A program made the translations under genes and the position numbers. A stretch of 64,000 nt of DNA, from contig OZ244732.1 of NCBI GenBank assembly GCA_965219345.1, forward strand, positions 704,001-768,000, in the 5' to 3' direction. The notes under the pieces are model-generated. The model was not told the DNA's origin, did not search any database, and saw nothing but the letters and a program-made list of their open reading frames with translations. Numbering within the stretch: the stretch's first letter is position 1; each line of letters opens with the position of its first letter. Origin of the DNA: Nitrosopumilus sp. (GTDB lineage Archaea; Thermoproteota; Nitrososphaeria; Nitrososphaerales; Nitrosopumilaceae). This document shows positions 39,849 through 55,187 of the stretch, piece after piece.

Positions 39849-40429
39849 TTGGTCTTGTAATGGCGGGTGGCAAAGGTAATCGTATGGAGTTAGATCATGA
39901 AAAACTATTACTCAAATACAAAAAACCTATAATCCTTCATGTAATTGACTCATTAAAAAATTCAAATTGTTTTTCAAAAATTTTAACTGCTACTAGTTCC
40001 AATTCCCCTAAAACAAAAAAGTTTCTGCAGGAAAATAATGTTGAAACTTTTGACACTCCTGGAATTGGTTATGTAAAAGATCTAAATTTAGCACTTAAAA
40101 CTGTCAACGACGTGGTTTTAGTTACTTCTGGTGATTTGCCTTTATTAGATAAAGAAGTTATACAAAAAATTGTAACAAACTATGATTCTCAAAATATTTG
40201 GACTAGCATTCTTGTCACAAACAAATTTTTAACTACTCTTGGAATTGAATCTGATTATTCTATAAATTTTGATAATCAAGCATGTCATTATACGGGAATT
40301 TCTTTAGTTAATTCAGAAAAAATCTCTTCGCTTGAAAATTTAGAAGAAAATTATATCATAATTGATGATAAGAGAATCGCATTTAATATAAATACAAAAC
40401 AAGACTATAATTTACTCAGCACTGCCTAA
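39845..40429 (+). CDS. cobY: adenosylcobinamide-phosphate guanylyltransferase
   Basis: MAGGKGNRM..EK, GYVKDL, GDLP, NINT; cobalamin cluster. Confidence 0.82.
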   Translation: MIGLVMAGGKGNRMELDHEKLLLKYKKPIILHVIDSLKNSNCFSKILTATSSNSPKTKKFLQENNVETFDTPGIGYVKDLNLALKTVNDVVLVTSGDLPLLDKEVIQKIVTNYDSQNIWTSILVTNKFLTTLGIESDYSINFDNQACHYTGISLVNSEKISSLENLEENYIIIDDKRIAFNINTKQDYNLLSTA

Positions 40430-40609
40430 GATTTTTCCATTTATCTTGGCTTTTGATCCTGTTGGTTCTGCAATGGTGTTACCACAGGAATTGCATGCAA
40501 CTAATGTTGACGCATGAGAATAAACTACTTGAGGTTCACCACATTCATCGCAGTTAACTTTTTGAAATTTGCTAGATGGTTCTGGAATTTCAATATGATC
40601 TCTTTTCAT
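40412..40609 (-). CDS. rps27e: 30S ribosomal protein S27e
   Basis: PSSKFQKVNCDECG..CNSCG..PTGSKA. Confidence 0.93.
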   Translation of the reverse strand: MKRDHIEIPEPSSKFQKVNCDECGEPQVVYSHASTLVACNSCGNTIAEPTGSKAKINGKILGSAE

Positions 40610-40887
40610 GCTGCCACCAACTCAAATTTCTTAATTCTAATGCCTGGTTTATTGTATTTCTTTTTACATACAGTACATGTCATAATAGGAGTAACTTTTT
40701 TTGTAACTTTGGCTGGTTTTGCTAGTTTTGGGAATTTCTGTCCACCATATCCATGTTTACGTTCTGCATGTCGGCGTTCACCTCTAGCAGAACCACGTCT
40801 TTTTCCAGCTTTGTAAATGGAGACCTTTTGTTCAGTATGTGTTTTACATTTAGGACAATACTTTCTGATCACCTTGGGAATGTTCAT
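40606..40887 (-). CDS. rpl44e: 50S ribosomal protein L44e
   Basis: YCPKCKTHT, GYGGQ, KVTKK, CTVC. Confidence 0.95.
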   Translation of the reverse strand: MNIPKVIRKYCPKCKTHTEQKVSIYKAGKRRGSARGERRHAERKHGYGGQKFPKLAKPAKVTKKVTPIMTCTVCKKKYNKPGIRIKKFELVAA

Positions 40888-40917
40888 ATCAACAAAACCT
40901 CTTCAACCGTAATTTAA

Positions 40918-40927
40918 GCATTGAATC
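40918..40927 (+). repeat. 10-bp direct repeat at left island boundary (second copy 53341-53350)
   Basis: GCATTGAATC at both junctions with core genome. Confidence 0.55.
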
Positions 40928-41055
40928 GGTTCTGGTAAAAAATAGTGATCAAGATCACCAAATTTTAACAGCAGGGTTCATAATGTGATATTTTCAATTA
41001 ATTCAGGCATAAAATAATCCCATATTTCATCAGATCATCAGAATCTTCCAGAACC
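40928..41055 (+). mobile_element. 128-bp IS6-type MITE, copy 1
   Basis: GGTTCTGG...CCAGAACC ends; exact reverse complement of 53181-53308. Confidence 0.9.
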
Positions 41056-41299
41056 GGCATTATTTATAGAATAGTATCGATCAGAATAAAATTTCAAGGT
41101 AAAGGATCATGTCCTCTCTTGTACCCTGAGAATTTCCTATACTCATAATCAGTTAGCGGAGTTTGGCATTTACACTTACAAAAGGTTTTCATGCGGTTCT
41201 GCTAAGTTATGGGGATATAGAATGAAATATGAATTTTCTCCAGATTGAACATGCGATCAATGCTTACTGTTATAATCTGGATATTTTCGATTATTTTGT

Positions 41300-42459
41300 A
41301 TGATGACTTTGAAGAGTAGGAATATGCTCATTTTACAGAATAAAAAAAATCTAACAGAATCAGAGATTAATCTGTATAACGGATATGAAAACATCCTACA
41401 CAACATCTTCGATCGTGCATGTGACCCTAATTCCAGTATGGATCCTTTCACTTCTGAATATGTTGGCAAAAATTCTATAAAATATAACTCAAATTATTAT
41501 AGTTCATTATTGGAGATCACATCTTATTTTTGGGCATCAAAAGGAGGTCGAGGCACATTATTGGAAAAAACCCTCCAAATCCTTGCAGGAGATAGTGCAA
41601 CACAAGGGACATACCTATCCTCATTTTTAAATAAATTAATCGAATCCCATGAAACATTATCGGGAAAAGTATCTTCCAAACTAAAGAAAAAATTTGATTT
41701 GATGAACATGCTGGAGGATTCTTTGATCATACTTGAACTAAAAAACAGAGTAGATAGTGGAGGAACAGCAGCTAGAAAAGAAGCATTAAAGAAATTTTTT
41801 GAATTACTTGATCATATCAGGAACAATACTGTAATATTTGAAGATATGAAAACTAAAGAAAAATACACACTTCAAAAACTGTTTAAGCTATTTGGAATTA
41901 AAAATTTTGAAATGTTGATGGGGTTTCTCTATAATGTAAAAGGCACAAATGCAAAAATACTTGATGATCAGACAAATGGATTTTATAGTGAAAGTAAAAA
42001 ACTTGTTACTGAATATGGATCAAAAAATCCTGATATGGTGTTGGATATATCTAATCTAAAGATCAATTTTGATACAGATCAAATTAAAAATATAATACAG
42101 ACTATTTATGGAAACGATGTATCTGAAAAATTTACTAAATCAAATAAGTCACTGCATGAATTATTCCAAAAAGTTTTTCTTAAATCTTGGGATGATGTTT
42201 GGTTGGCATTGAATGTAGGTATTGCAGAAAGAAACTTGTTATTGAAAACTAAGACAAATAATCTTTTACACATACAGCACTTGAATAATATTGATTTAGA
42301 TTTTAAATCAGAATTGCATAAATTCATAACAGATTCAGATAATTTGAGATTGATTAGCAATATTTTAAAGAAAATACGAAATAGTGAGGGGGGGGGGGTT
42401 CTAGTGAATCTGACCAACATCTTACAGATTGCCTGTACGTTTGTTCGAGGTTTATTTGA
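41300..42459 (+). CDS. putative type II restriction endonuclease, frameshifted near C-terminus at G11 tract
   Basis: RGTLLEK and FDL..ILELKNR PD-(D/E)XK-like motifs; directly upstream of MTase; alternative frame ends in TGA(42457-59) overlapping MTase ATG. Confidence 0.65.
42388..42398 (+). repeat. poly-G (G11) tract
   Basis: GAGGGGGGGGGGGTT; far longer than other G runs seen in this AT-rich window. Confidence 0.9.
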
Positions 42460-43535
42460 TGGCCATTCAACCATTCAATATATTGCATGGCAATTCAGAC
42501 AAAATACTCAAAAAACTGGCTCAAAATTCCAAAGAACAAAACAAATACAAACTAATCGTTACATCTCCTCCATACTACAAACATAGGAAATATGGAGAAA
42601 AGAATGATGAAATTGGACAGGAAAAATCATCCGAAGATTATCTAAACAAACTTGTATCTGTTTTTAAATCCTGTAAAAAATTACTTGCCGAGGATGGCAG
42701 TATGTTTATTGTTATTGGAGATACCCGAAGAAATCATGCAAAATTGATGATTCCGCATAGATTGGCAATCAAACTAATTGAAATTGGATATTGTTTTCAG
42801 GAAGATATTATTTGGCATAAGAAAAATGCAATATCTACAAATTCAAAAACAAGCCTTGCACAATCTTATGAATTTATATTGTTTTTTTCTAAAAATAGAA
42901 TTCCATATCTAAATATGGATTCTATCAGAGTACAAGGAAATGAAGTAACATCGGGTTCAACTCCAACTCCTGCAAACCACGAAATACAGTTAAAATCAAT
43001 AGAGAAAAACATGAGGGCAATAAAAAAGATTACAGATACTATTCATAATGCAAAACCAGATACTCCCTTTGAAGATTTGCCATCAACTGATGAAATATCA
43101 TGGGCATATGGCTATGATCCAGACAAGCGATGTCCTACCTGTTACAGAAAATTCAAACGTCATGCGACACGCAAAAGAATAGGTGGTCATAAACATTATC
43201 CAATATTTGCAGTATGTAATCCCAAAGGCAAGAATCCTGGAAATGTGTGGGATATATCCACAAAGGCTCATCATGGTAACGAGCATTTTGCAATATTTCC
43301 TGAAGATTTAATATCAAAAATAGTAAAATTTGCAACTAAAAAAAGAGATCATGTCTTGGACCCATTTGCAGGCAGGGGGACCGCTGGGATTGTTTCTGTA
43401 TGTCTTAAGAGAAATTTTACAGGTATTGATCTATATGCGACAAATGTAAAAAATACAAGGTGTAATATACAAGAGGTGTTAGATTCAAAACTACCAAATA
43501 AAATCTTAAATCAAATTCTCAATACTCATCAATGA
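42459..43535 (+). CDS. site-specific DNA methyltransferase, beta class (N4-C/N6-A)
   Basis: IVTSPPYY motif IV before HFAIFPE and VLDPFAGRGT motif I. Confidence 0.9.
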   Translation: MAIQPFNILHGNSDKILKKLAQNSKEQNKYKLIVTSPPYYKHRKYGEKNDEIGQEKSSEDYLNKLVSVFKSCKKLLAEDGSMFIVIGDTRRNHAKLMIPHRLAIKLIEIGYCFQEDIIWHKKNAISTNSKTSLAQSYEFILFFSKNRIPYLNMDSIRVQGNEVTSGSTPTPANHEIQLKSIEKNMRAIKKITDTIHNAKPDTPFEDLPSTDEISWAYGYDPDKRCPTCYRKFKRHATRKRIGGHKHYPIFAVCNPKGKNPGNVWDISTKAHHGNEHFAIFPEDLISKIVKFATKKRDHVLDPFAGRGTAGIVSVCLKRNFTGIDLYATNVKNTRCNIQEVLDSKLPNKILNQILNTHQ

Positions 43536-43546
43536 CAGACTTTTTT

Positions 43547-43756
43547 TTAATTTAGTCCATTTTCTATTTCAGCAATTTTCTCTGAAATATTTTTTTTCTG
43601 GTTCTTTAGATGCTCTAACTTAAACTGCAATGCCTTCTTTTCAGATAATACGCTAGAAGCTATGCCGCAGTATCTCTCACATTTTTTGCCGTTGTCATAA
43701 TATGAGTAGTACAAGTATTTTTTGGCTCTTATTGTCTTGATTACGGTTGTAGCCAT
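43547..43756 (-). CDS. small mobile-element protein (beta-sheet DNA-binding-like N-terminus + coiled coil)
   Basis: VIKTIRAKKYLYYSYYDNGK..RYCG pattern; inside TIRs, divergent from transposase. Confidence 0.55.
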   Translation of the reverse strand: MATTVIKTIRAKKYLYYSYYDNGKKCERYCGIASSVLSEKKALQFKLEHLKNQKKNISEKIAEIENGLN

Positions 43757-43981
43757 GTATTTTTTACCCCATGCTCTTAATTTAATGTTATCTATTTTTT
43801 AGAGACACATATATATTATATCTATAATAGATATAACAATGAAACAGCAAAGAGCAAGACAAACAATGAAGAAGACAAAAAGTTCAGAGGGAATTACGCT
43901 CCCAATGATGAATCTGGCGTTATCAGAGTTCTTGAGTCTCTTTGTTTTTTCCACCTTATTAATTTTCAAGGGGTCTTGCGC

Positions 43982-45109
43982 ATGAATGCAAGAGCACAAC
44001 ATGCAAGGCAGATTGTGGAACTGCCCGATTATGCAAAGTTCATAGGAAACAACAAAATCAAGATTAGATCACAGACGGACTTGACAAAATCCTACATTAT
44101 TTCAAAAAGTGACAGGGGTTTGGTTTGTGAGTGTCCAGATCATCAGAATAGAAAATCAGACTGCAAGCACATCAAGATAGCATTGGAGCTAATCAGAAAG
44201 AACGAGGGCCAGAAACAGACATTCCGTATAATTGAGAGGTCACTGATCAGGGTCTGCAAGTTCTGTGATTCAGGAAATATCGTAAAGGCAGGTCTAAAGA
44301 AAAACAAGAGCAAGACAATGCAGAGATTCAAGTGCCAGGATTGTAAAAAGAGATTTACTGCAAACTTTGGATTTGAAAAGATGAGATATGATGAAAATGC
44401 CATTACAGGGGCATTACAAATGTCCTATTCGGGAATGTCAACTAGAGATATTTCCAATCACTATGAGATGATGGGAATTGAAGTATCTGATGTTACTATC
44501 TATAATTGGATTGACAAATATTCCAAGATGACCTCCAACTATCTCAAGGGAATAGTACCAAGAGTTTCAGAAACATGGAGAACCGATGAAATCTTTATAA
44601 AAATTAGTGGCAATCAGAAACTACAATATTCCATGCTTGACCATGAGACCAGGTTTATGATTACCCAATATGTGGCAAACACAAAAGGTACTGAAAATGT
44701 AGACCCAATGTTCAGGGAAGCCATGATGATTGCAGACAAAATACCAACTACATTAATTTCAGATGGAGCTCATAATTTCCATGAGGCATGGAAAAATAAC
44801 TACAAGGCAAAGAATCCACTTTGGAAAGACACCGAACACATCAGACACATTCACATGAAAGGTGACAAAAACAACAACAGAATGGAGAGACTGAATGGTA
44901 CTATCAGGGATCGTGAAGCTGCATACAGAGGAATAAAAAAGATGGACAGTCCTTTGTTTGACGGATTCCAGACATTTTACAATTTCTCAAAGAAGCATGG
45001 TGGAATTAATAACAAAACACCAGCAGAAAAAGCAGGTATTTTGGTTGATGGAGACAACAAATGGAAGACCATAATCCAAAATGCCAGTCTAAACAAAAAT
45101 TCTCAATAG
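43982..45109 (+). CDS. IS6/IS1-related DDE transposase with SWIM and Zn-ribbon domains
   Basis: CECPD..CKH SWIM; CKFC..QRFKCQDC; TIYNWI HTH; WRTDE, ISDG, NNRMERLNG DDE; KTPAE. Confidence 0.88.
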   Translation: MNARAQHARQIVELPDYAKFIGNNKIKIRSQTDLTKSYIISKSDRGLVCECPDHQNRKSDCKHIKIALELIRKNEGQKQTFRIIERSLIRVCKFCDSGNIVKAGLKKNKSKTMQRFKCQDCKKRFTANFGFEKMRYDENAITGALQMSYSGMSTRDISNHYEMMGIEVSDVTIYNWIDKYSKMTSNYLKGIVPRVSETWRTDEIFIKISGNQKLQYSMLDHETRFMITQYVANTKGTENVDPMFREAMMIADKIPTTLISDGAHNFHEAWKNNYKAKNPLWKDTEHIRHIHMKGDKNNNRMERLNGTIRDREAAYRGIKKMDSPLFDGFQTFYNFSKKHGGINNKTPAEKAGILVDGDNKWKTIIQNASLNKNSQ

Positions 45110-45538
45110 GCATGAAATTCAATCTGGAGAAGATCCATATCTCATTCTATATCCCCATAACTTAGCAGAACCCACCTGATACACTCAAAGCTTGCCCGAA
45201 TCTATCTGAACGCTTTGGATTGTCTTGGATTAGTTTTATGCTTTGACTCCATGTGGTGCCGTCACTCTCAAATACATATACGGTACCTGGACCGTTTCCC
45301 CCCTCAAGTACAGACCCTACTACCATAGTATTGCCATCAATGTCAGCAGAGCGCCCAAAGCTGTCATATGGTAATCCATCAGATGCTGAAATCTTTTGTG
45401 TAATTGATTGTGGTACCACTATACCCTCTTCTACTGTAACAGTTAGAGACTCTGAATCCGATAGTGCAAATGTGGTACTATCAGAGGAGACTGCATCTCC
45501 ATCATCGGATACCATAACATCAAAAGTGTGATCCCCTA

Positions 45539-46632
45539 TACTGACGAGCAAAAGTTCATGAGATCAAACATGTTAGACGGCAACACATTTTGATCACGTC
45601 CCACTACGCATTACAATGCCCGCAGTAAAATCCGAAGACCTGAAGAAGGCGTACAAGAAGGAAAGGGATCCCAGGGTCAAGATCAGGATGGCCGCAGTAA
45701 ACATGGTGTGCATGAACAATGAGAGCATCCAGCATGCGGCAGACTCACTCATGCAGTGTCCCAACTGGGTCTCCTTCTGGGTAGAACGCTTCCGGGAGGG
45801 CGGCATCGACACCCTCCGGGATCTTCCCAGGAGCGGCAGGCCACCGAAGGTCAGGCTCGAAGACATTGAAGAGACAATATCCGGGGCAGGCAGCATCATT
45901 ACTCCCCCGCAGCTGAGGGAACGTGTCCGCAAGATGCACGGCATAACATACCACATTACAAGCGCCAGGAGGATAATGCACAGGCTGGGCATGTCTGCCA
46001 AGACGGCAAGACGGGTCCACATAAACAGGGCAGGGACAGACGAGATCAAAAGGTGGCAGCGCAACGCAAAGAGGCGCATATCGCGCCTGGAATCGAGGGG
46101 TTTTGCCGTCGTAGTCTTTGACGAGTCCATATTCATAGACGACCCGGCATCGGGGACAAAGTACTGGTCGCCAAAAGGCCAGCCCATAGTCACCACATAC
46201 AAGGGCCGGCACGGCAGGGTCGTGGCGTACGGTTCCATCGCGACTGACGGCAGGCAGTTCATCAGGACGTACGAAAAATTTGACAAGGAGATGGTACTGC
46301 GGTACCTAAAGGAGCTTGCGGGACATTTCGGAAAGGTTGCCATAATAATGGACAACGCGCCGCAGCACAAGGCGAAGACGGTGAGCGAGTTCCTAAAGGG
46401 CAACAAGAACGTCAAGGCAGTATGGCTTCCAACCGCAACACCGGAGCTCAGCGTCATGGAGGAGTACTGGCACCAGTCAAAGCGCGACGTGCTGGTGTCA
46501 GAATATTATGGAACAATAGGGCAGATGCACCGCGCAATGTCAGAGCATTTCAGGACGGCGCGGCCGTGGCTTGACGCAATGAAGTTCATCTGCAGAAAGT
46601 CATTTGATCTCAAGAACTTTTGATCGACAGTG
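45539..46632 (+). mobile_element. IS630-family insertion sequence
   Basis: ~30-bp imperfect TIRs (TACTGACGAGCAAAAGTTCATGAGATCAAA / CACTGTCGATCAAAAGTTCTTGAGATCAAA), TA duplication at 45537-38 and 46633-34; visibly GC-rich. Confidence 0.92.
45616..46623 (+). CDS. IS630 family transposase
   Basis: PRSGRPP HTH, FDES, MDNAPQH, PELSVMEEYW DDE. Confidence 0.92.
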   Translation: MPAVKSEDLKKAYKKERDPRVKIRMAAVNMVCMNNESIQHAADSLMQCPNWVSFWVERFREGGIDTLRDLPRSGRPPKVRLEDIEETISGAGSIITPPQLRERVRKMHGITYHITSARRIMHRLGMSAKTARRVHINRAGTDEIKRWQRNAKRRISRLESRGFAVVVFDESIFIDDPASGTKYWSPKGQPIVTTYKGRHGRVVAYGSIATDGRQFIRTYEKFDKEMVLRYLKELAGHFGKVAIIMDNAPQHKAKTVSEFLKGNKNVKAVWLPTATPELSVMEEYWHQSKRDVLVSEYYGTIGQMHRAMSEHFRTARPWLDAMKFICRKSFDLKNF

Positions 46633-47801
46633 TACATGAGAATTATCAGGAGTCCAGAAGAATGCTCCAGTAGTACCATCAATGGTACTACCTGTAGGTG
46701 CTGCTCCAGACAGTGAAAATCTCAAAGTATCTGATATGTCTGCATCAACTGCTACTGCAGTAAAGGACAATGTATCCCCCGAGTTTATTGTGTAATCAAT
46801 TATTGGCGTTACAAATGGCGCATCATTTACAGATGTCACATCAAGTGATACAGTTGCAGTGTCAGTTAATCCAGAGTTGTCAATTATACCATACTCAAAT
46901 GAATCCATTCCATGATAGTTTGGATTTGGGGTGTATGTGATTTCTATACCATCAAAGATTATCTGCACTGTTCCATGTGTGGGTTGTGTAACAATTGACT
47001 GGATAGATATGAAATCAGCACCTACAGTAACTATTGGTGGCTCTCCATCACCGCCACCATCTGTATTACCATTACCATCACCATTACCATTTTCTGTACC
47101 GTTTCCGTTGTTACCGTTTCCATTACCAGTATTGTTTCCATTTGTATTTGGATTAACTGAAATGTTTTGCAGTGACAGAATTCCTGCACCACAAAGTGTA
47201 CCATCAGATGGAATAGATGATGAGAGTATTGTGTTAGTTATTTGTTGTATAGAATTATCAGGATATGCTTGTAACAGTAACGCTGCAGCTCCTGTCACAT
47301 GTGGCGCAGCAGATGATGTTCCCAAAAATGGACTAAATGACCCTTGAGTGGTAGATATACCATCAAATCCACAGATTTCTGGCTTGTCTCGTCCATCATC
47401 AGTTGGACCTGCAGAGCTAAATGGTTCTGGAATACCATCGATATAGTTTACAGCACCCACAGTTATTGCACCTGCAGCATCAGCAGGAGTTGATATACTT
47501 GATGATACCATGGATAATCCATCATTAACAGAGCCTCTAACTATATTGATGTGAAGCAGACTGTTATTATCCTGAGGGGTAGAATTATTGTCACTATCAT
47601 CGTTGCTATCCTCAGATAGTGCAACTACAAGACATGTATCAGAGATAGGGGAGCCATAAATTACCTCGATTGGTTCACCTGCCACTTCAGACTGTGCAGA
47701 TGTAGAATGGTATAGTATATCAGACATGTTACTATCATAGATGAATACATCATAGTCTAGACTAGTATACTCCCAAGAGTCCCAGGATAGTACGGTCCAT
47801 C

Positions 47802-48377
47802 ATGCTAACAGATGAGTTCAAGAAGATACGTTATGAACTCAATAAAGAGGGTATTGCTTCTGCAAAACAATATGAAGACAATGCAGATTATTGGCGTTCA
47901 TTAAGTCATCCTGAATTCCCAGATGTAGCAACACATGGAGTTCACAATACTTCTTATGACTCTCAAACCATTCCAACTTCACACTCATGTTCTAGTTGTT
48001 CCCAAAAAGGATATTTTATATCCGGTTTTGACTGGTGGGTAATTCCATCTATTTGGAAAACATCTGAATCTGCTGATTATTGGACAAGAGTAACAACTAC
48101 AACACAATCATACGTTTCTGAGGTGGAAACTGATCAACACTATGCGGAAATAAAACCTTGGTCTCATTATTCTTTAAAGAGAAGTGGGTCCATTGAGTGG
48201 GTTTCTGGCCATATTGTTGTTAACAATTTTGACAATGAGCTTCAATACTCAAGTCCTTTTGTATTCACTTCGACTTATGTAACACTATCATATGCCACGT
48301 TAGAATATTCGTGGATTGATGACGTTCCTAGCCATTCTAGACACATAACACAAGCTAGCGCAAACACAATTAACTAG
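47802..48377 (+). CDS. hypothetical protein, possibly 5'-truncated
   Basis: 191-aa ORF abutting the truncated S8 gene head-to-head with no room for promoters. Confidence 0.45.
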   Translation: MLTDEFKKIRYELNKEGIASAKQYEDNADYWRSLSHPEFPDVATHGVHNTSYDSQTIPTSHSCSSCSQKGYFISGFDWWVIPSIWKTSESADYWTRVTTTTQSYVSEVETDQHYAEIKPWSHYSLKRSGSIEWVSGHIVVNNFDNELQYSSPFVFTSTYVTLSYATLEYSWIDDVPSHSRHITQASANTIN

Positions 48378-48399
48378 CCTACCACTTCCTTTTTTTATC

Positions 48400-48546
48400 A
48401 TGGACAAAGATAAGAAAACAGATCTTGAACTATTAATAATAATACGACAAACTTTGTTACTTGCATTGAATAAACAATTCCTAAGCATTGATAGTTATAG
48501 AAATGCAGTTAGAGATATCGATGACAAGATTAAAGCCATACAATAA
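48400..48546 (+). CDS. small hypothetical protein (48 aa)
   Basis: MDKDKKTDLELLIIIRQTLL...KIKAIQ. Confidence 0.35.
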   Translation: MDKDKKTDLELLIIIRQTLLLALNKQFLSIDSYRNAVRDIDDKIKAIQ

Positions 48547-48623
48547 CGGAATATGTACAAGACTAATATTATTCATTTTTAAAAGTCAGTTGAAGGAATT
48601 AAACTAAGTCAGCACAAACCTAA

Positions 48624-48929
48624 TACAACGGTTCTGGAGCTTCTGTAAGCTATGTTTCTAATGAAAAATGTTTAAAAAATGGTTTAAAATTCAAAGGTTC
48701 AGGAAGCGGAATTATTTGTATACATGGAAAACTACATCAAGATAGGAAAGTCCCATTATATGAGAGGAATATAACTGTCGGAAATATCACAAATAAAGTA
48801 AAAATCACTGCATTAGGAAAAGATGTGGTCATAGGTTCAAAGAAAATAGAGGCTGTACTTGGAAGAAACGTTCTAAAATTTTTTACTGTAAATCTAGACT
48901 GGAAAAATTCTACTGGAAAATTAACCTAA
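48624..48929 (+). pseudogene. retropepsin-like (clan AA) aspartyl protease remnant
   Basis: GSGASVSYV (degenerate DSGA) and AVLGRNVL..VNLDW motifs; no start codon. Confidence 0.5.
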
Positions 48930-49093
48930 TTTTAAAATAAATTCATTTCTTCCCACGTCTCCTCTACCTGAATCAATCAAATCTTGTACTTTTTGTATTT
49001 TATATGAATCCATTTTGTATAATGATGTTTGGTGTAATTTAGAAATTTCTAATTGTTACATGGTAATAGATTTTGGAATTTCATTTTTCGAGC

Positions 49094-49267
49094 CTAACGG
49101 TATGTTGATTCCCAACATTTTTTGTGATATGATTTTTTCGAACGCTTTGTTCTTTGAGAGTGAATGGAGTCACCAATAGAAAACGATTCTCCACACTTTG
49201 CACATATCTGTTTTCTATATTTTCTCATGTGAGAATAATCCAAAATTACAAAATTACGGCTGACCAT
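49094..49267 (-). CDS. small CxxC...HxxC zinc-finger protein
   Basis: CAKCGESFSIGD...YHKKCWE. Confidence 0.55.
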   Translation of the reverse strand: MVSRNFVILDYSHMRKYRKQICAKCGESFSIGDSIHSQRTKRSKKSYHKKCWESTYR

Positions 49268-49501
49268 TGGAGAATAATCAGATATAGGGATTATATGAAA
49301 TATTTCTTTATGTAATATAGCCAACTAATCATTAAAGTTAATCGTTAGTGAAATTAGGGTAAATCATTCATGTTAAAATCAAATTTTTTAGAATTGCATA
49401 AAAAATCATTTGAAATTACGTCTTGTTGTCAAAATAACAACTCTCCAAGTTAACAGTAAACACATTCAATCTTTTTATCTCATATATCATATTTTGAAAC
49501 T

Positions 49502-50245
49502 GTGTATTACTTGTATATTGATGAGGGTGGGGATACAGGAGATTATTTAGATAAATACAATAAAGTCATAGATGGAAGTTCCAAATTTTTCACTCTAGCT
49601 GGAATCATAGTAGATGATGCACTAAAAACAAAACTCAATGACGAAATTAATTCCATAAGTGACAGATATTTTTCAAAGACAACACTACCTGAAAATTTCA
49701 AGATTCATTATCATCCATTAAGAAACAAACGTCCTCCATATGATAAATTATCAGATGCCCAGAGATTTCAGCTAGCCAATGACATGTTTGAGCTTATCAA
49801 AAAATCAGACTGTCATCTTTTGTCAGTTACAATAAATCTAGACCGTCACTGTAGAAAATATGGCATACCAGCAGACCCAAAAGCATATGCTATCTTGATA
49901 CTAATGGAGAGATTTCAGGATTTTCTTGAAGAACATAGTGCTGAAGGCAGAGCAATTTATGAGAAATTCAACAAAAAGGCTAGAAAAAAGGCAGAGCGAA
50001 CCATTAGAGGATTAAAAGAAATTTTGCGGTTTAGACACTACAAGGAACTTGATAATATCAGAGGTCATGTGGAAAATGGTGATCCCAAAACATCACCAAT
50101 ACTGCAACTTGCAGATTTTTTTGCATATGCTGTATGGATAAAACGAACCACTTCTGATTCATCCAAAACTCGATGGTTATCAATCAAAGACAAGTATTAT
50201 CGATTAGACTATGGGTGGTACAAAGCAGGGAATGTTGAAATTTAA
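49502..50245 (+). CDS. DUF3800 family protein (RNase H-like)
   Basis: YLYIDEGGDTG N-terminus, FTLAGII, LQLADFFAY (QxxD) motif. Confidence 0.85.
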   Translation: MYYLYIDEGGDTGDYLDKYNKVIDGSSKFFTLAGIIVDDALKTKLNDEINSISDRYFSKTTLPENFKIHYHPLRNKRPPYDKLSDAQRFQLANDMFELIKKSDCHLLSVTINLDRHCRKYGIPADPKAYAILILMERFQDFLEEHSAEGRAIYEKFNKKARKKAERTIRGLKEILRFRHYKELDNIRGHVENGDPKTSPILQLADFFAYAVWIKRTTSDSSKTRWLSIKDKYYRLDYGWYKAGNVEI

Positions 50246-50246
50246 A

Positions 50247-50305
50247 GGCGATTCCTGAGCTCTTGCTTCCAAGTCTCATAGTTAGCATTACACCAACGGA
50301 ACCGT
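50247..50305 (+). ncRNA. candidate DUF3800-associated structured RNA (three-way junction)
   Basis: P1 GCGATTCC/GGAACCGT, P2 TGAG-CTTG[CTTC]CAAG-CTCA, P3 GTT/AAC, starting 2 nt after DUF3800 stop. Confidence 0.5.
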
Positions 50306-50651
50306 AATGATAATACCAATTTCTATTTTTTAAAGGTTAGGTATTGTAAAATCGTTTTAGAAAAGATCAATTTTGTTTACGCATAAAAGCTAAACCCCCA
50401 TCAAATCTGTGAAAAAAGGAAAAATTTACGCATACATATTCAACCCCTTAATTATTCCAGTTACATCAGGCATGATATGATTTTTTCATATTTGCCAAAA
50501 ATGGGGGCGGGTTTAGCTTTTATTCCTGAATATGTCAATCAAATGTCATTTCAGCCCGATGATATAATATGATGTTGTCACAAAATTTGTTCAGGCATGA
50601 AAACTCAATACTAAAATAATTTTTAAAATTATGCCTAAAAGCTAAACTCCT

Positions 50652-50975
50652 CTAAAATTTTTGGAAAATAGAACTTTTTAGTGATTTGGAACTTTTTCCT
50701 GTACTAGTAAATAGAGGTAAATTTTTTGGAGTTAGTTTATCAAGTTCAACAAGAATTTTTGTTTGTAGTTGCTTCAAATCTTCATCAGAAAGTTTGAACC
50801 AATCTGAAAATGCATTATTTTCAATTTCTTTAAAGATTTCATCAGAAATTTCAGAACCATCTAAAAATTCTTGTAAATCAAAATCTTCATCAAGTTTATG
50901 AAATTTATGATTTACAACATGTTTTAGTTTTTGAATGATTGTAAACATTGTAAGATCTTTTACGTCAATTTCCAT
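50652..50975 (-). CDS. hypothetical protein
   Basis: acidic ORF starting MEIDVKDL downstream of OLD-family gene. Confidence 0.45.
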   Translation of the reverse strand: MEIDVKDLTMFTIIQKLKHVVNHKFHKLDEDFDLQEFLDGSEISDEIFKEIENNAFSDWFKLSDEDLKQLQTKILVELDKLTPKNLPLFTSTGKSSKSLKSSIFQKF

Positions 50976-51984
50976 ACTTTTGATGTATATTTTCAGATAA
51001 AAGGCTAGGAAATAACTAAGAAATACACAAGATTTGATGCAAATCTCCCTCCATTTCAGAGTTAAAACATACAAAGTATCATAGAATTATACTGAAAATT
51101 CTATGAAATAATCATGTGAAAAATAAGAAAATTATTTTTCTAACACTGTATTAATTTGTTTGAATAATTCTTCAAATTTTTTACAGGTATTATCAGAAAT
51201 TTTCTTTTCCGAGGATTGTTTAGCAATCCAATCAATTATGACATTACCTACTTTCCATTTTTCTAGATTATCATATCCTTGTCGTTTAAACAAGGCCTCA
51301 ACTCTATTTACAATGGGAATAATTTTTTCTTCATCACTATTGAATTCAATTTTGTATTTGGGATATGCACTTTTTACGGCCTCTATGTAAAGTGAATCTT
51401 CAAAAAAATCTTCAATCTCAGATTTTTCTTTTCCAGTAAAATTATCAACAATTAGACTATTTACCAATAGTTTTTCTTTTAGTGTTTTCTCTTTTTGTAA
51501 TCCTGGTTGATCTCCATCCAACAAAACAGTAATTTTGATATCATTTCCAACAAGCATACTTGCCAAAGGCATCAAATGACTAGTACCACCAGCAGGAGAA
51601 ATTACAATATCTTCATGTATAGTTGACATTTTTTGTCGGGAAAGTAATTCATTTATTGCTTTGAGAAATAAATAATCAGTTAGTCCCTCAACCACAAGCT
51701 GAAATTTTGAATAGAATAATGTTTGTGCAAGAGAATATCCTAATCCAGCCTGTAATGGAAATAAAGAGTCTCGGTCTTTAGACCAAACATCGTCAGAAAC
51801 TTTGATAACTCCAAAATTAGATTCATCCTCATATACAATTTTGACATTTTCTAGATGATCCCCATCAATCATGAATGGAGAATGAGTTGTGTAAAGAAGT
51901 TGATTTTCATTGGATATTCTATTTAGAAACTCAACTGTTTTCTGTTGTGCAGTTCCATGAAACTGCATACCAGGTTCATCCAAT

Positions 51985-53028
51985 TGTAATATACCGAAAT
52001 CATTTCGCCTGGTCATTTATGTCCTCCCCCATCCATTTCGGGTGGGTTTTCCTGATCGCGTCAGTGGCCTTTTTGTCCGAGAACGCCCTCAGCGGCGTCT
52101 GGTGGTTGTGGATGTCAAGGGAGAAGTGCAGCCTTCTCTCGTTGTAGTATTCCATGTACGCAGACAGGCTCTCGTAGTGAAATATCTCGTCCTCTATGCT
52201 GCGGTGGAACCTCTCAAGCTTCCCGTTTGTCTGGGGATGGTACGGCCTGGAGTTTATCAGCTCGATGCCGCAGTCGAGCAGCTCTGCCTCAAAGGCAGTG
52301 GCCTTCCACGTCTTCTTTGGCGTCTTTCTGCCTCCGCGTCCCACAAAGCACGAGCCGTTATCAGATAGTATGGCCGCAGGCGTGCCAAATCTCCTGATTG
52401 CCTTTCTGAGTACCGTTACTGCGTTCTCGGATGTGGCCTGCGTGAAGACCTGCGAGGCCACGACGCACCTTGAGGCGTCATCAAGATACGTGACTAGCTG
52501 GAGCCCCCTGAATCGGGGATCCTTCATCTCGTGCCAGTCCACATGCCACATGGCGTTGGAATACCTGCGCTCGTAGCGCACCCACTTTCGCCTCCGTGAC
52601 CCTGCATCGGAGTGGACCACCATGCCGTTCTCCTTCATTATCCGGTATACGCGCCTGTAGCTTATATTGTGACTTGCCTGCAGGTCGAGGGTCGTGCGTA
52701 CGACCCCTACTTTCTGTCCGGCGTATGCGTCCAGAACCGCCCGTGTCTCGCCTGGCGTAGGCAGTACCTGCCTTCTTCCCGGACTGCGCTGTACGTGGTG
52801 CACGCCAGTCCTGCGAAACTCCGCCCACAGCTGCTGGATGCGCCTCTGCGTCACCTTGAGCTCAGCTGCAATGTCTGCAGTGGGCCTCCCCTTCTGGCAC
52901 CGGGATATGGCGTACCGGATCTGCCTTTCCGTAAGCTTGATCTTCATCCGTTTTGCTGATCGGTACAGCCTAAGGTAATCCTTTGCAAGCCTCCTAAAAG
53001 TGAGGCGAAATGATTTCGGTACAATACA
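51985..53028 (-). mobile_element. IS481-family insertion sequence
   Basis: TGT...ACA ends, 26-bp TIRs (24/26), 15-bp TSD CCAGGTTCATCCAAT at 51970-51984 and 53029-53043; visibly GC-rich. Confidence 0.92.
52000..52947 (-). CDS. IS481 family transposase (rve integrase core)
   Basis: MWHVDW, LDDASR, LSDNGSCF, PQTNGKLERFH, YNERRLH. Confidence 0.92.
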   Translation of the reverse strand: MKIKLTERQIRYAISRCQKGRPTADIAAELKVTQRRIQQLWAEFRRTGVHHVQRSPGRRQVLPTPGETRAVLDAYAGQKVGVVRTTLDLQASHNISYRRVYRIMKENGMVVHSDAGSRRRKWVRYERRYSNAMWHVDWHEMKDPRFRGLQLVTYLDDASRCVVASQVFTQATSENAVTVLRKAIRRFGTPAAILSDNGSCFVGRGGRKTPKKTWKATAFEAELLDCGIELINSRPYHPQTNGKLERFHRSIEDEIFHYESLSAYMEYYNERRLHFSLDIHNHQTPLRAFSDKKATDAIRKTHPKWMGEDINDQAK

Positions 53029-53180
53029 CCAGGTTCATCCAATAACAAAATAGAATTTGCATGTTCTCCTTTGGCTTCAACCAAGAATATCAAATAAAAC
53101 GAAAAGAAATATTGCATACCTGCACTTCGTTGATCGAGCTCAATTTCACTCGGATCTAAATCATCAGAAACCCATACTCT

Positions 53181-53308
53181 GGTTCTGGAAGATTCTGATG
53201 ATCTGATGAAATATGGGATTATTTTATGCCTGAATTAATTGAAAATATCACATTATGAACCCTGCTGTTAAAATTTGGTGATCTTGATCACTATTTTTTA
53301 CCAGAACC
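53181..53308 (-). mobile_element. 128-bp IS6-type MITE, copy 2 (inverted)
   Basis: exact reverse complement of 40928-41055. Confidence 0.9.
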
Positions 53309-53380
53309 ATAATGCCTAATATTTTATGCATAAAACCAATGCATTGAATCTATAATAGATGCAAAACCCAATTAATAACC

Positions 53381-55144
53381 GTGAATTCAAGCCTAGAAAA
53401 TTCCATCTATTCTTTGAATTCTGTAGCAATGGGAGACAAAAAAGCCGATCTTGTTTTAAAAAATTGTAATTTGTTGTCAGTCTATACCAAAGAAATCATT
53501 CCAAAAACTCAGATTGCAATAATTAATGATAGGATTGCATATGTTGGTCCAAATGCAGCACATACACTAGGTCCAAAAACAATAGTCATTGATGTAGAGA
53601 ACAAATACGCAAGTCCAGGCTTTGCAGATCCTCATTTACATATTGACCAATTTGTATTGCCGTCTGAATTTGGAAAAAAGGCACTTCTATGCGGCGTAAC
53701 TTCTCTTTTTTCTGATCCAATTGATATTGTTAGTGTTACAGGTTACAAAGGTTTTCAAGAGTTTCTCAAACTTGGAGAAGACTTACCAATAAGAATTTTC
53801 CAAGTAGTTCCTGGAGGCCTTCCTGTTGATGAAAAATTTAGTAACAGTAAAACTCTCTCATTATCGCAAGAAAAATCTGCGGTAAAACATCCTCATGTTC
53901 TTGGCTTGGGAGAAGTTTTTTCATGGACTAAAGTTACTCAGCGTGAACCTAAAACAATGAAATCACTTTCAACAATGTTGGAGTGCGATTGCATAATTAA
54001 CGGACATACTGCAGGCATAAGTGAAAAAAAACTCAACGCTTACGTTTCATCGGGGATACTCTCTTGCCACGAACCAATTAATTTTGATCAAGTATTGGAT
54101 AGATTGCGTCTTGGAATGTGGGTAATGATTAGAGAGGGTTCTATAAGACGTGATTTGAAGGAAATCATCCCTCATATTTTGTCTCACGGAACATACCTCA
54201 ATCGTTTAATGTTTTGTTCTGATGGCCTTGATCCATTAGATGTTACAAAATTTGGTCACATTGATCACTGCATCAGAGAATCAATCAAACTTGGTCTGCA
54301 ACCATTGGATGCAATTACTATGGCGTCCAAGAATAATTTTGACTATTACAATATGGGAAAAGATCTTGGTGGGATTGCACCTGGAAAATTAGCAGATATT
54401 CTTATTTTCAATGATTTGAAATCATTCAAACCAACTAAAGTCTTTGTGGGAGGAAAACTTGTAGTCTCACACGGAAGTGTCGTGTCTCATTTCAAGAAAA
54501 AAGTAATACCACCTTGGATTAAAAAAACTGTTAAACTAAAAAAGTTCTCAGAAAATGATTTTCTTGTAAAATCAAAAAAGAAAGATGTTCTTGCAAACAC
54601 CATCTATATGCAAACTGAAATCATTACCAAGATTGGTTCGACTGAACTACGTGCAAAAGATGGCCATGTCTCTGCCTCGTTTGATGCTGATATATGGAAA
54701 GTTGCAGCATTTGATAGAACTCATGGAACAAATCGACATTCCATTGGGTTTCTCGAAAACTTTGGGGCTGATATTGGCGCCTTTGCTTCTACTTGGAGTT
54801 TTCATGAAAATGATCTGATAGTACTAGGTTCTGATGATTCTGATATGGCAATTGCTTCTAATCATATTATCAAGAATCAGGGAGGACTTGTTGTAGTCAA
54901 GTCTGGCAAAATTTTAGCTTCTTTACCTTTACAATTTGGAGGAATTGTTTCAACAGATTCTTTTGAAAAGGTTTCATCAAATTTTCAAGACATCATTAGC
55001 TCTGTTGTAGATTCAGGATGTAAATTTACTAGACCTCATCTTATTCCTTTGTTCCTACCTTTCTTGGCTTTACCATCTGTTAGAATTCTCTCAGGTGGAA
55101 TTGTTGATGTGAAAAAACGAAGTTATATCGAGCCGATCAACTAA
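53381..55144 (+). CDS. ade: adenine deaminase
   Basis: PGFADPHLH, GLGEV, NGH, CHE, REGS, FCSDG, IAPGKLAD. Confidence 0.88.
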   Translation: MNSSLENSIYSLNSVAMGDKKADLVLKNCNLLSVYTKEIIPKTQIAIINDRIAYVGPNAAHTLGPKTIVIDVENKYASPGFADPHLHIDQFVLPSEFGKKALLCGVTSLFSDPIDIVSVTGYKGFQEFLKLGEDLPIRIFQVVPGGLPVDEKFSNSKTLSLSQEKSAVKHPHVLGLGEVFSWTKVTQREPKTMKSLSTMLECDCIINGHTAGISEKKLNAYVSSGILSCHEPINFDQVLDRLRLGMWVMIREGSIRRDLKEIIPHILSHGTYLNRLMFCSDGLDPLDVTKFGHIDHCIRESIKLGLQPLDAITMASKNNFDYYNMGKDLGGIAPGKLADILIFNDLKSFKPTKVFVGGKLVVSHGSVVSHFKKKVIPPWIKKTVKLKKFSENDFLVKSKKKDVLANTIYMQTEIITKIGSTELRAKDGHVSASFDADIWKVAAFDRTHGTNRHSIGFLENFGADIGAFASTWSFHENDLIVLGSDDSDMAIASNHIIKNQGGLVVVKSGKILASLPLQFGGIVSTDSFEKVSSNFQDIISSVVDSGCKFTRPHLIPLFLPFLALPSVRILSGGIVDVKKRSYIEPIN

Positions 55145-55187
55145 GTAATGTTAAAAAGGGGGATTCATGGGACTGATGCTGAATCCA

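What the first reader, a model, noticed from the sequence alone, without database searches (positions are those of the whole stretch)
40928..53316. A 128-bp non-autonomous IS6-type MITE appears to have inverted a 12-kb island by replicative transposition
Seen: two identical 128-bp copies (40928-41055, 53181-53308) in opposite orientation, each with GGTTCTGG/CCAGAACC ends and no ORF. The 8 bp right of copy 1 (GGCATTAT, 41056-63) are the exact reverse complement of the 8 bp right of copy 2 (ATAATGCC, 53309-16). Established: IS6-family elements such as IS26 move by copy-in transposition with 8-bp target duplications, and an intramolecular event gives two inverted copies with one TSD flipped. Inference: this MITE duplicated and inverted 41056-53180. 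An earlier adjacent deletion would explain why copy 2 abuts a 5'-truncated OLD gene. Identical copies suggest a recent event, and the pair now forms a potential MITE-bounded composite element in an archaeon.
Basis: partly seen in the sequence, partly recalled or inferred. Interest (0 to 1): 0.8.

Follow-up and report, generated by a model that had tools for sequence, protein, structure and literature searches.

The report
IS6-type MITE pair flipping an archaeal island
Two identical copies of a tiny non-coding jumping element in a Nitrosopumilus genome carry the textbook scar of a copy-and-flip transposition that inverted about 12 kb, inside a strain-specific island whose own arrival is still unexplained.

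Summary
Two 128-nt copies (40928-41055, 53181-53308) are 100% identical and inverted. The 8 nt right of each are exact reverse complements; chance is about 4e-5 per comparison.

The element has IS6-type tips, no ORF, and sits in a Nitrosopumilus genome with about 25 IS6 transposase loci. Four IS6-type elements there have exact 8-bp direct duplications, and a fifth has 7 to 8 bp. The pattern is the canonical product of IS26-like intramolecular copy-in transposition. A simple insertion followed by recombination between the inverted copies gives the same sequence and cannot be excluded.

The island boundaries needed correcting:
- Every congener for which both flank matches were listed has rpl44e next to ade.
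- The inserted block is 40928-53340 (12,413 bp), flanked by a 10-bp direct repeat.
- The transposition target ATAATGCC was therefore island DNA, not core.
- A 23,977-nt public contig bridges the empty site in a run that also holds the island.

The left island edge is exactly a MITE tip and the right edge is not. No canonical IS6 route explains that. Verdict: a new member of a known kind, of moderate interest.

The parts
40918..40927 (.). Left copy of the 10-bp direct repeat GCATTGAATC flanking the whole island; core DNA between the rpl44e and ade promoters
   Evidence: left- and right-flank homology overlap by exactly 10 bp in every relative for which both flank matches were listed; empty-site letters read in 3 loci (L014, L022, L023).
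40928..41055 (+). MITE copy 1 (A end at left, B end at right). Under the copy-in model this is the original copy; its A tip is exactly the left edge of the island
41056..41063 (.). Inverted copy (GGCATTAT) of the 8-bp target duplication, inside, next to the B end of copy 1
41064..53180 (.). Segment inferred to have been inverted (together with 41056-63)
   Evidence: Inference from the IS6 'trans' model (review passages) applied.
41092..41190 (-). Small 32-codon Cys-rich ORF, conserved and multi-copy in the genus; an IS6-type element sits 4 nt upstream of its ATG
   Evidence: matches in 43 of 150 other genus genomes.
41195..45172 (+). 3,978-bp IS6-type transposon with 55-nt inverted repeats. 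It carries a 428-aa ORF of no known family, an N6/N4 DNA methyltransferase and a 377-aa IS6-type transposase. No target duplication.
   Evidence: pair I2, 95%; PF01555, PF13610; NF033587, full model length, 94 bits, below the cut-off of 125; type II MTase; flanks.
45536..46634 (+). IS630-type insertion sequence; a 100% identical copy lies at C1:465931-467029
45162..47727 (-). Fragments of a subtilase / Ig-like / FG-GAP surface-protein gene, split by the IS630-type element and cut off by the IS6-type transposon
49502..50245 (+). DUF3800 gene; with neighbouring unassigned ORFs (47802-48377, 50652-51074) this is the non-IS cargo of the island
51132..51984 (-). C-terminal part of the OLD-family nuclease gene (TOPRIM)
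51985..53029 (-). IS481-like (rve) insertion sequence inside OLD, with a 14-bp direct duplication (51971-51984 and 53030-53043); a 99.6% copy lies at C1:49549-50593 with its own 14-bp duplication
53030..53180 (-). Middle part of OLD (Walker B region), frame open up to the MITE; the 5' half of the gene (about 350 codons) is missing
53181..53308 (-). MITE copy 2 (B end at left, A end at right), the new copy under the copy-in model
53309..53316 (.). Outer copy (ATAATGCC) of the 8-bp target duplication
53317..53340 (.). Last 24 nt of the island; not core, not MITE-like; ends in CAAT, which with the repeat forms the palindrome CAATGCATTG
   Evidence: no significant likeness to the MITE family; no exact match elsewhere.
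53341..53350 (.). Right copy of the 10-bp direct repeat GCATTGAATC
   Evidence: joint 40917 to 53341 with 10 shared letters.

Best explanation
A 128-nt non-autonomous IS6-type element (MITE) sat at the left edge of a 12.4-kb strain-specific island in a Nitrosopumilus chromosome. Its B end abutted a truncated OLD gene. An IS6-family transposase supplied in trans joined its two ends to the target ATAATGCC, 12.1 kb away in the same island. The genome has at least 8 full-length candidate genes, one only 139 bp away.

Because IS6-type elements move by copy-in (replicative) transposition, an attack on the opposite strand of the same molecule has three effects. It duplicates the element, inverts everything between the element and the target (now 41056-53180), and leaves the 8-bp target duplication as two reverse-complement copies. 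One copy lies inside next to the old element and one lies outside next to the new one.

What is shown: the identical inverted copies, the exact 8-bp relation, the IS6-type tips, the 8-bp duplications of co-resident IS6-type elements, and the truncation of OLD.

What is inferred: that the inversion was simultaneous with the copying, which transposase acted, and that an earlier MITE-mediated adjacent deletion removed the 5' half of OLD.

The island as a whole (40928-53340) is a separate, earlier insertion between the divergent rpl44e and ade promoters, flanked by a 10-bp direct repeat. How it arrived is not settled.
For: - Inverted pair: 128 of 128 identical.
- 8-bp flanks: exact reverse complements in the positions the model predicts, right of both copies, and for exactly 8 nt. 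P is about 4e-5 per comparison.
- In a scan of all 537 GGTTCTG termini in contig C1, 5 pairs have reverse-complement flanks. Four are the two ends of one IS6-type element with a direct 8-bp duplication, and the fifth is this pair.
- Tips GGTTCTGG/CCAGAACC, with 16 of the first 24 nt shared between the two ends.
- The same GGTTCTG tip bounds elements that encode DDE_Tnp_IS240 / NCBIfam IS6 transposases.
- About 25 IS6 transposase loci in the genome, at least 8 of them full length.
- Related MITEs in the genome: 6 copies, five of 171-172 nt and one of 238 nt. Related MITEs also occur in 9 of 120 other genus genomes.
- The IS6 review describes exactly this outcome for the 'trans' intramolecular reaction, and an 8-bp duplication for the family (passages read).
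- OLD: frame open to base 53180, and homology to the intact G167 gene stops there.
Against: - A simple insertion of copy 2 with a direct 8-bp duplication, followed by homologous recombination between the inverted 128-nt copies, gives a letter-for-letter identical result. Four IS6-type elements here do have exact direct 8-bp duplications, and a fifth has 7 to 8 bp.
- No autonomous element with matching ends was found. The closest transposase-carrying ends differ at 7-8 of the first 24 nt.
- None of the other family copies examined has a direct 8-bp duplication: 0 of 6 in G000, 0 of 1 in G093 and 0 of 1 complete copy (read on both strands) in G007. This pair is therefore the only duplication evidence for the family.
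- In the control, flanks displaced by 10-100 nt gave 2-12 such pairs among all termini. The total count of 5 is therefore not above background. Only the identity of the partners is informative.
- No un-inverted or MITE-less allele was seen, though contigs built from 31-nt words cannot span the element.
- Orientation rests on one assembly.
Confidence: 0.7

Rival explanations
1. Two steps. Copy 2 arrived as an ordinary insertion with a direct 8-bp duplication of ATAATGCC. Homologous recombination between the two inverted 128-nt copies later flipped the segment, and may still flip it back and forth in the population.
For: The product is identical in sequence to the one-step product (logic applied). 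Four IS6-type elements in the genome carry exact direct 8-bp duplications and a fifth has 7 to 8 bp, so simple insertions do arise here. 128 nt of perfect identity is a plausible substrate for recombination.
Against: For a copy-in element moving within one chromosome, the inverted state is the immediate product and the direct-duplication state needs an extra recombination. This route therefore needs at least one more step. No flipped allele was seen (weak evidence).
Confidence: 0.2
2. Assembly artefact. The assembler placed the segment between two inverted repeats in the wrong orientation, or chose one of two coexisting orientations.
For: The genome is a 2-contig assembly and related records are metagenome-assembled genomes. 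The same population holds at least two alleles of this locus, with and without the island.
Against: Flipping the segment only turns the structure into a MITE with a direct 8-bp duplication. The transposition event and both copies would stay real. A 128-nt repeat is trivial for long reads.
Confidence: 0.05
3. Coincidence. Two independent insertions of the same MITE whose flanks happen to be reverse complements.
For: None beyond the AT-rich composition.
Against: P is about 4e-5 per comparison from the genome's own 8-mer spectrum. The copies are 128 of 128 identical while every other family member differs by 8% or more. The match has exactly the family's duplication length.
Confidence: 0.01
4. 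About the island, not the pair. The 12.4-kb block is a decayed integrase-type integrated element whose attachment core is the 10-bp repeat. The MITE later landed in or next to the left attachment site and deleted the element's left part, including the integrase and the 5' half of OLD.
For: 10-bp direct repeat with P about 4e-6 by chance. The site is empty in every relative for which both flank matches were listed and in a bridging public contig. Thaumarchaeal attachment sites are 8-26 bp in most cases, median 17, and 15 of 68 integrations are intergenic (Krupovic 2019, passage read). Seven tyrosine-recombinase matches elsewhere in the genome could act in trans. The cargo looks like defence genes (OLD, DUF3800).
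Against: No integrase or remnant in the island. The MITE tip coincides with the repeat boundary to the base, which needs a lucky hit of roughly 1 in 10^3 to 10^4, unless the original core was longer. No related intact element was found: only single genes are shared with other genomes.
Confidence: 0.35

Closest known systems
IS26 / IS6-family intramolecular replicative transposition 'in trans' (He et al. 2015 mBio, seen in a search listing only; Varani et al. 2021 Mobile DNA, passages read)
   Same: Two copies in opposite orientation bracket an inverted segment. The 8-bp target duplication is present as reverse-complement copies, one inside next to the old copy and one outside next to the new one. 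The tips start with GG.
   Different: The moving unit is a 128-nt element with no transposase, so the enzyme acts in trans. The host is a marine ammonia-oxidising archaeon, not a resistance plasmid. The co-resident transposases are about 370 aa with an N-terminal zinc-binding extension, and the one scored (the 377-aa protein in the window) falls below NCBIfam's IS6 cut-off (94 versus 125 bits).
IS6-family MITEs in ISfinder (two examples, 227 and 336 bp, per Varani et al. 2021, passage read)
   Same: Both IS ends and no ORF.
   Different: Shorter (128 nt; relatives about 160-172 nt). Ends only 16 of 24 alike. No cognate autonomous element identified. No direct duplication on any copy.
ISEcp1-type and Tn3-family one-ended transposition (recalled from my own knowledge, no paper read here)
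   Same: A block of adjacent DNA bounded by a proper transposon end on one side only and flanked by a short direct repeat, as the island is.
   Different: Different transposase families. The repeat here is 10 bp, not the family's 8 bp. No surrogate end is recognisable at the right edge. Nothing of the kind is reported in the IS6 review ('one-ended' occurs 0 times in its text).
Cryptic integrated elements of Thaumarchaeota (Krupovic et al. 2019, passages read)
   Same: Strain-specific block in an intergenic site, short direct repeat within the reported range, defence-type cargo.
   Different: No integrase, and a transposon tip exactly at one boundary.

Membership tests
IS6-family-derived MITE | Terminal inverted repeats of IS6 type (GG at the tips, related to the ends of IS6 elements) | tested here: met
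   Tips GGTTCTGG/CCAGAACC, 16 of the first 24 nt shared between ends. The same GGTTCTG tip bounds elements encoding DDE_Tnp_IS240 transposases in this genome. The review names the GG tip and a cTGTt motif; the MITE has GG and CTGGT.
IS6-family-derived MITE | Small, no transposase ORF | tested here: met
   128 nt; longest stop-free stretch 22 codons.
IS6-family-derived MITE | 8-bp target duplication | tested here: met
   Exactly 8 nt, in the inverted configuration. No direct duplication on any of the other family copies checked: 0 of 6 in G000, 0 of 1 in G093 and 0 of 1 complete copy in G007.
IS6-family-derived MITE | A cognate autonomous IS with matching ends | tested here: not met
   The closest ends of transposase-carrying elements differ at 7-8 of 24 nt. 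Only degenerate transposase fragments lie near family copies. Trans-mobilisation by a less similar IS6 transposase remains possible.
IS6-family-derived MITE | Several copies, related copies in relatives | tested here: met
   2 identical copies plus 6 related copies (five of 171-172 nt, one of 238 nt) in G000. Matches in 9 of 120 other genus genomes.
Product of intramolecular copy-in transposition (trans) | Old and new copy inverted, target duplication inverted, one copy inside and one outside | tested here: met
   geometry as in the review passage.
Product of intramolecular copy-in transposition (trans) | The ancestral un-inverted, single-copy allele exists or existed | tested here: inconclusive
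   No such joint in 4 runs of contigs, but the contigs break at the 128-nt repeat. No relative holds the island. The 24-nt right end has 0 exact matches in two collections.
IS6 pseudo-compound transposon | Flanking copies in direct orientation and one 8-bp duplication around the whole | tested here: not met
   The copies are inverted. The outer flanks ATTGAATC and ATAATGCC differ. The review says inverted copies stall at the cointegrate stage.
Integrase-type integrated element of Thaumarchaeota | Direct repeat at both ends and an empty site in relatives | tested here: met
   10-bp repeat; 10-bp overlap of flank homology in every relative for which both flank matches were listed; letters read in 3 loci; bridging contig in run X4.
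Integrase-type integrated element of Thaumarchaeota | Encodes an integrase | tested here: not met
   No Pfam integrase among the 12 island ORFs scanned (19 ORFs in the call). None of the 7 genomic PF00589 matches lies in C1:744928-757340.

The most novel reading that the evidence does not exclude
The MITE tip itself drove the island into the chromosome. A single IS6-type end was joined to the rpl44e-ade spacer, replication ran through the MITE into about 6-12 kb of neighbouring donor DNA and ended at an arbitrary point. This left a one-ended insertion with a non-canonical 10-bp duplication and a small palindrome at the illegitimate right junction. On this reading a 128-nt MITE acts as a portable origin of transposition that can move any adjacent DNA in archaea. 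The coexistence of filled and empty sites in one population would then reflect current activity.
Probability: 0.12. Interest if true: 0.75.

Novelty: new member of a known kind. Interest (0 to 1): 0.45.

Why it matters
It gives sequence-level evidence that IS6-type elements, including a non-autonomous one, are currently active in Nitrosopumilus and rearrange its chromosome in the way IS26 rearranges resistance plasmids. Nitrosopumilus is an abundant marine ammonia oxidiser usually thought to carry few mobile elements.

It also marks a locus where one natural population holds alleles with and without a 12-kb block. That makes questions of rate and mechanism testable with long reads.

The unexplained edge of the island, and the restriction-modification cargo of the co-resident IS6-type transposons, are leads that go beyond what the IS6 review lists for the family.

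Tried and rejected
- Exact search for the first 32 nt of the MITE in genome contigs: 0 hits.
- Exact search for the island's last 24 nt in genome contigs and metagenome contigs: 0 hits each. No donor or un-inverted allele was found.
- Right end as a relic of another MITE copy: rejected. The local alignment score was reached by 112 of 500 and 204 of 500 shuffles.
- Right end as the end of a paralogous element near C1:1763310: only a small conserved ORF is shared. Downstream sequences are not conserved.
- Related islands: DNA of 47700-51984 matched only single-gene fragments in 8 of 120 other genus genomes. The intact OLD homologues in G167 and G280 share no neighbouring genes with the island.
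- Target preference of the MITE: the A-end flanks of both copies share TTA[A/G]GCATT, but none of 7 other family copies does. I treat this as post hoc, about 1% by my own rough estimate.
- Canonical IS6 routes for the island (cointegrate, translocatable unit, inversion plus re-inversion), worked through on paper: each leaves a MITE end next to the right repeat copy. That is not what is seen.
- Public runs: only contigs were available. No opposite-strand joint near 41063/53309 was listed in 4 runs, and contigs cannot span the repeat, so this says nothing about an un-inverted allele. The joints across the empty site in X1 and X2 have only 20 letters on the shorter side and are not counted as bridges. 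Contig depths are not shares of cells. In X2 the figures were flanks 188, empty-site joint 117 and island-only part 71.
- One element from the scan (C1:1823546-1826530) turned out to be two inverted serpin genes, not a transposon, and was dropped.
- The search of earlier findings returned nothing for this genome.
- Supplementary tables of Krupovic 2019 (IS coordinates, attachment sites) were not seen and might list IS6 elements of Nitrosopumilus.

Full report
**1. The observation**

The repeat finder on 38000-56000 returns one perfect inverted pair: 40928-41055 and 53181-53308, 128 nt, 100% complementary. Direct reading shows the following.
- Both copies start GGTTCTGG and end CCAGAACC.
- Copy 1 is followed by GGCATTAT (41056-63).
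- Copy 2 is followed by ATAATGCC (53309-16).
- These two 8-mers are exact reverse complements. The relation holds for 8 nt and fails at 9.

From the genome's own 8-mer spectrum, two random 8-mers are reverse complements with P = 4e-5. The element has no stop-free stretch above 22 codons. Its two ends share 16 of their first 24 nt. I call the end at 40928 'A' and the other end 'B'.

**2. Where it lies**

The window is G000:C1:704001-768000, in an assembly of 1.87 Mb plus a 41.6-kb contig, 36% G+C. Related loci carry record titles of Nitrosopumilus and Nitrosopumilaceae genomes.

Pfam, NCBIfam and PADLOC scans give this map:

| Coordinates | Strand | Feature |
|---|---|---|
| 40606-40887 | - | rpl44e |
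| 40928-41055 | + | MITE copy 1 |
| 41092-41190 | - | 32-codon Cys-rich ORF |
| 41195-45172 | + | 3,978-bp IS6-type transposon with 55-nt inverted repeats: unassigned 428-aa ORF, N6/N4 methyltransferase, 377-aa transposase |
| 45162-47727 | - | subtilase / FG-GAP gene fragments, split by an IS630-type element at 45536-46634 |
| 47802-51074 | | DUF3800 and two unassigned ORFs |
| 51132-53180 | - | OLD-family gene, split by an IS481-like element (51985-53029) with a 14-bp duplication |
| 53181-53308 | - | MITE copy 2 |
| 53381-55144 | + | adenine deaminase (ade) |

The 377-aa transposase matches PF13610. It also matches NCBIfam IS6 over the full model, at 94 bits against a cut-off of 125.

**3. 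OLD is truncated at the MITE**

The OLD frame is open right up to base 53180. An intact 679-aa homologue in another genus (G167, 75% identical) loses DNA homology exactly there. About 350 codons are missing. OLD abuts the B end of copy 2.

**4. IS6-type context**

- The tip GGTTCTG occurs 541 times in the assembly, against about 130 expected by my composition estimate.
- tblastn with the 377-aa transposase finds about 25 loci, at least 8 of them full length.
- Pairing termini by inverted-repeat similarity gave 21 candidate pairs, several overlapping or nested.
- In four of these elements the flanks are an exact direct 8-bp duplication (C1:401802-404769, 1007879-1010720, 1448345-1451300, 1729074-1732317). 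In a fifth (1033406-1036785) the match is 7 to 8 bp.
- One candidate (1823546-1826530) was later dropped, because it is two inverted serpin genes.

So enzymes of this family are active here and make 8-bp duplications. That agrees with the IS6 review (passages read).

**5. The MITE family**

- Only two copies of the 128-nt form exist in the genome.
- Six related copies share the first 51 nt (88-92%) and the last 25 nt. Five are 171-172 nt and one is 238 nt.
- Matches occur in 9 of 120 other genus genomes, including a 159-nt relative in G093.
- None of these other copies has a direct 8-bp duplication.
- No transposase-carrying element has matching ends. The closest differ at 7-8 of 24 nt.

The mobilising enzyme is therefore not identified. 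Lack of direct duplications is what a copy-in element moving within one chromosome should show, but it also means this pair is the only duplication evidence for the family.

**6. Mechanism of the pair**

The review states that in the intramolecular 'trans' reaction the DNA between the IS and the target is inverted and bracketed by the original copy and a new inverted copy. The target duplication ends up in inverted orientation.

Applied here, the reading is as follows.
- Copy 1 is the original and copy 2 is the new copy.
- The target was ATAATGCC.
- Before the event, the B end of copy 1 abutted the truncated OLD.
- The stretch now at 41064 was joined, on the other strand, to 53309.

In a scan of all 537 termini in contig C1 for reverse-complement flanks, 5 pairs appear. 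Four are the two ends of single elements, and the fifth is this pair. As a control, flanks displaced by 10-100 nt gave 2-12 pairs. The count itself is therefore not above background; what matters is who the partners are.

The alternative is an ordinary insertion of copy 2 followed by recombination between the inverted copies. It gives the same letters and cannot be excluded. I weigh it at about 0.2, against 0.7 for the one-step route.

**7. The island is larger, and is itself an insertion**

Searching the left flank (39845-40927) and the right flank (53309-55144) in 40 relatives shows the two flanks adjacent in the same contig. Right-flank homology starts at query base 33, and the two matches overlap by exactly 10 bp. 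This holds in every relative for which both matches were listed: G003, G005, G006, G007, G008, G009, G011, G012, G014, G015, G017, G019, G020, G021, G023 and G024.

I read the letters in three loci (L014, L022, L023). There the site is ...GCATTGAATC followed directly by the ade promoter region.

The inserted block is therefore 40928-53340 (12,413 bp), flanked by GCATTGAATC at 40918-27 and 53341-50. The chance of a 10-mer identity is 4.4e-6. The 32 nt right of copy 2, including the transposition target, belong to the island.

**8. Population evidence**

Four public runs from one study hold 87-97% of the sampled words of 47700-53400. They may include the sample the window was assembled from, so they are not independent evidence.

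- In run X4, one 23,977-nt contig lies on 40400-40917 and continues at 53341-53900. It bridges the empty site with 10 shared letters.
- Other contigs of the same run cover island DNA with 0-3 differences.
- X1 and X2 show the same joint, but with only 20 letters on the shorter side, so I do not count them as bridges.
- Three differences in the methyltransferase region are carried by the single contig laid there in each of X1, X2 and X4, at its full depth. The run strains are therefore close to the window but not identical to it.

Alleles with and without the island thus coexist among near-identical genomes. All runs were contigs built from 31-nt words, which break at the 128-nt repeat. The orientation question could not be addressed.

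**9. How did the island get in?**

This is unresolved. The left edge is the MITE's A tip to the base. The right edge (24 nt ending in CAAT) resembles neither the MITE family nor anything else searched.

I worked through cointegrate formation, translocatable-unit insertion, and inversion followed by re-inversion. Each leaves a MITE end next to the right repeat copy, which is not what is seen. Two readings remain.

(a) A decayed integrase-type element.
- For: its 10-bp attachment core fits the thaumarchaeal range (8-26 bp in most cases, median 17; 15 of 68 integrations intergenic; Krupovic 2019).
- For: a later MITE hit and adjacent deletion could have removed the integrase and the 5' half of OLD.
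- For: there are seven tyrosine-recombinase matches elsewhere in the genome.
- Against: it needs the MITE to have landed in the left attachment copy.

(b) A non-canonical one-ended event primed at the MITE tip.
- For: it explains the edge exactly.
- Against: it has no precedent in the IS6 review ('one-ended' occurs 0 times).

Two further details are post hoc and each roughly 1% by chance on my own estimate. The right junction forms the palindrome CAATGCATTG. The flanks upstream of both A ends share TTA[A/G]GCATT.

**10.

The MITE, its IS6 nature, the 8-bp scar, the inversion and the OLD truncation stand. The island limits and the idea that the target was core DNA do not. The 'composite element' suggestion conflicts with the review's statement that functional IS6 compound structures need direct repeats.

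**11. Verdict**

This is a clean new example of a known mechanism, carried out by a MITE in a thaumarchaeon. It sits inside a strain-variable junkyard island with very recently active IS copies (100% and 99.6% identical copies elsewhere in the genome).

Interest is moderate. The island edge and the restriction-modification cargo of the neighbouring IS6-type transposons are the parts most worth following up.

Noticed in passing
window 41195-45172; L077 (G000:C1:1007879-1010720); L078 (1033406-1036785); L080 (1218898-1223066): IS6-type elements here are 2.8-4.2 kb, and four of them carry restriction-modification-like cargo next to a 364-380-aa transposase. The cargoes are: N6/N4 MTase plus an unassigned 428-aa ORF; N6/N4 MTase plus an endonuclease VII-like protein; a BglII-type nuclease plus N6/N4 MTase; and an EcoRI-type MTase plus a GmrSD/HNH nuclease. 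L077 has an exact 8-bp duplication and L078 a 7 to 8-bp one. The IS6 review lists a single family member with a passenger gene.
   Followed up: partly
window 40917/53341; runs X1, X2, X4: A 23,977-nt contig in run X4 bridges the empty site, while the same run also holds island DNA. The island is therefore polymorphic among near-identical genomes. X1 and X2 show the same joint with only 20 letters on the shorter side.
   Followed up: partly
window 41212-44179 in runs X1, X2, X4: The contigs covering the IS6-type methyltransferase transposon have higher word depth than those covering the rest of the island (for example 162 versus 71 in X2). They also carry three differences from the window (42841, 42875, 42881), each on the single contig laid there at its full depth. 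This suggests a further copy elsewhere in the population. G000 itself has only one copy.
   Followed up: no
window 51985-53029 and G000:C1:49549-50593: An IS481-like (rve) element makes 14-bp target duplications at both of its copies, which are 99.6% identical. One copy splits the OLD gene.
   Followed up: yes
window 45536-46634 and G000:C1:465931-467029: An IS630-type element with a 100% identical second copy and several 94-98% copies. It was active very recently.
   Followed up: no
window 41092-41190 (-): A 32-codon Cys-rich ORF is conserved at 69-88% DNA identity in 43 of 150 other genus genomes, with up to 5 copies per genome, often behind a conserved upstream motif. Function unknown.
   Followed up: partly
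G000:C1:401802-404769 and 1448345-1451300: Two copies of a 2.96-kb unit. Each is made of a 983-bp IS6-type element with perfect ends, plus about 2 kb with a 495-aa unassigned ORF, plus a third solo end. Each copy has its own 8-bp duplication, so the transposase can use a distant solo end.
   Followed up: partly
G000:C1:913413-914498 versus 1501210-1502319: A 1.1-kb paralogous segment (91%) at the end of giant repeat-rich surface-protein genes stops exactly at the B end of a 172-nt MITE copy. The MITE marks a duplication boundary.
   Followed up: no
window 53337-53346 and 40914-40922 / 53310-53319: The right island junction forms the perfect palindrome CAATGCATTG. The flanks upstream of the A ends of both MITE copies share TTA[A/G]GCATT. 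Both observations are post hoc and unexplained.
   Followed up: partly
G000:C1:45801-45979; 404797-404843; 1444790-1444836; 1521355-1521401: Other miniature IS6-type elements: a 179-nt one with different ends, and 47-nt mini-palindromes made of two tips. None has an 8-bp direct duplication.
   Followed up: no
L037 (G007:C1:588491-590265): In the closest relative, two 170-nt MITE copies in inverted orientation bracket 1.4 kb with two unassigned ORFs. One tip is fused to the tip of a further element, giving a nested, rearranged structure.
   Followed up: no
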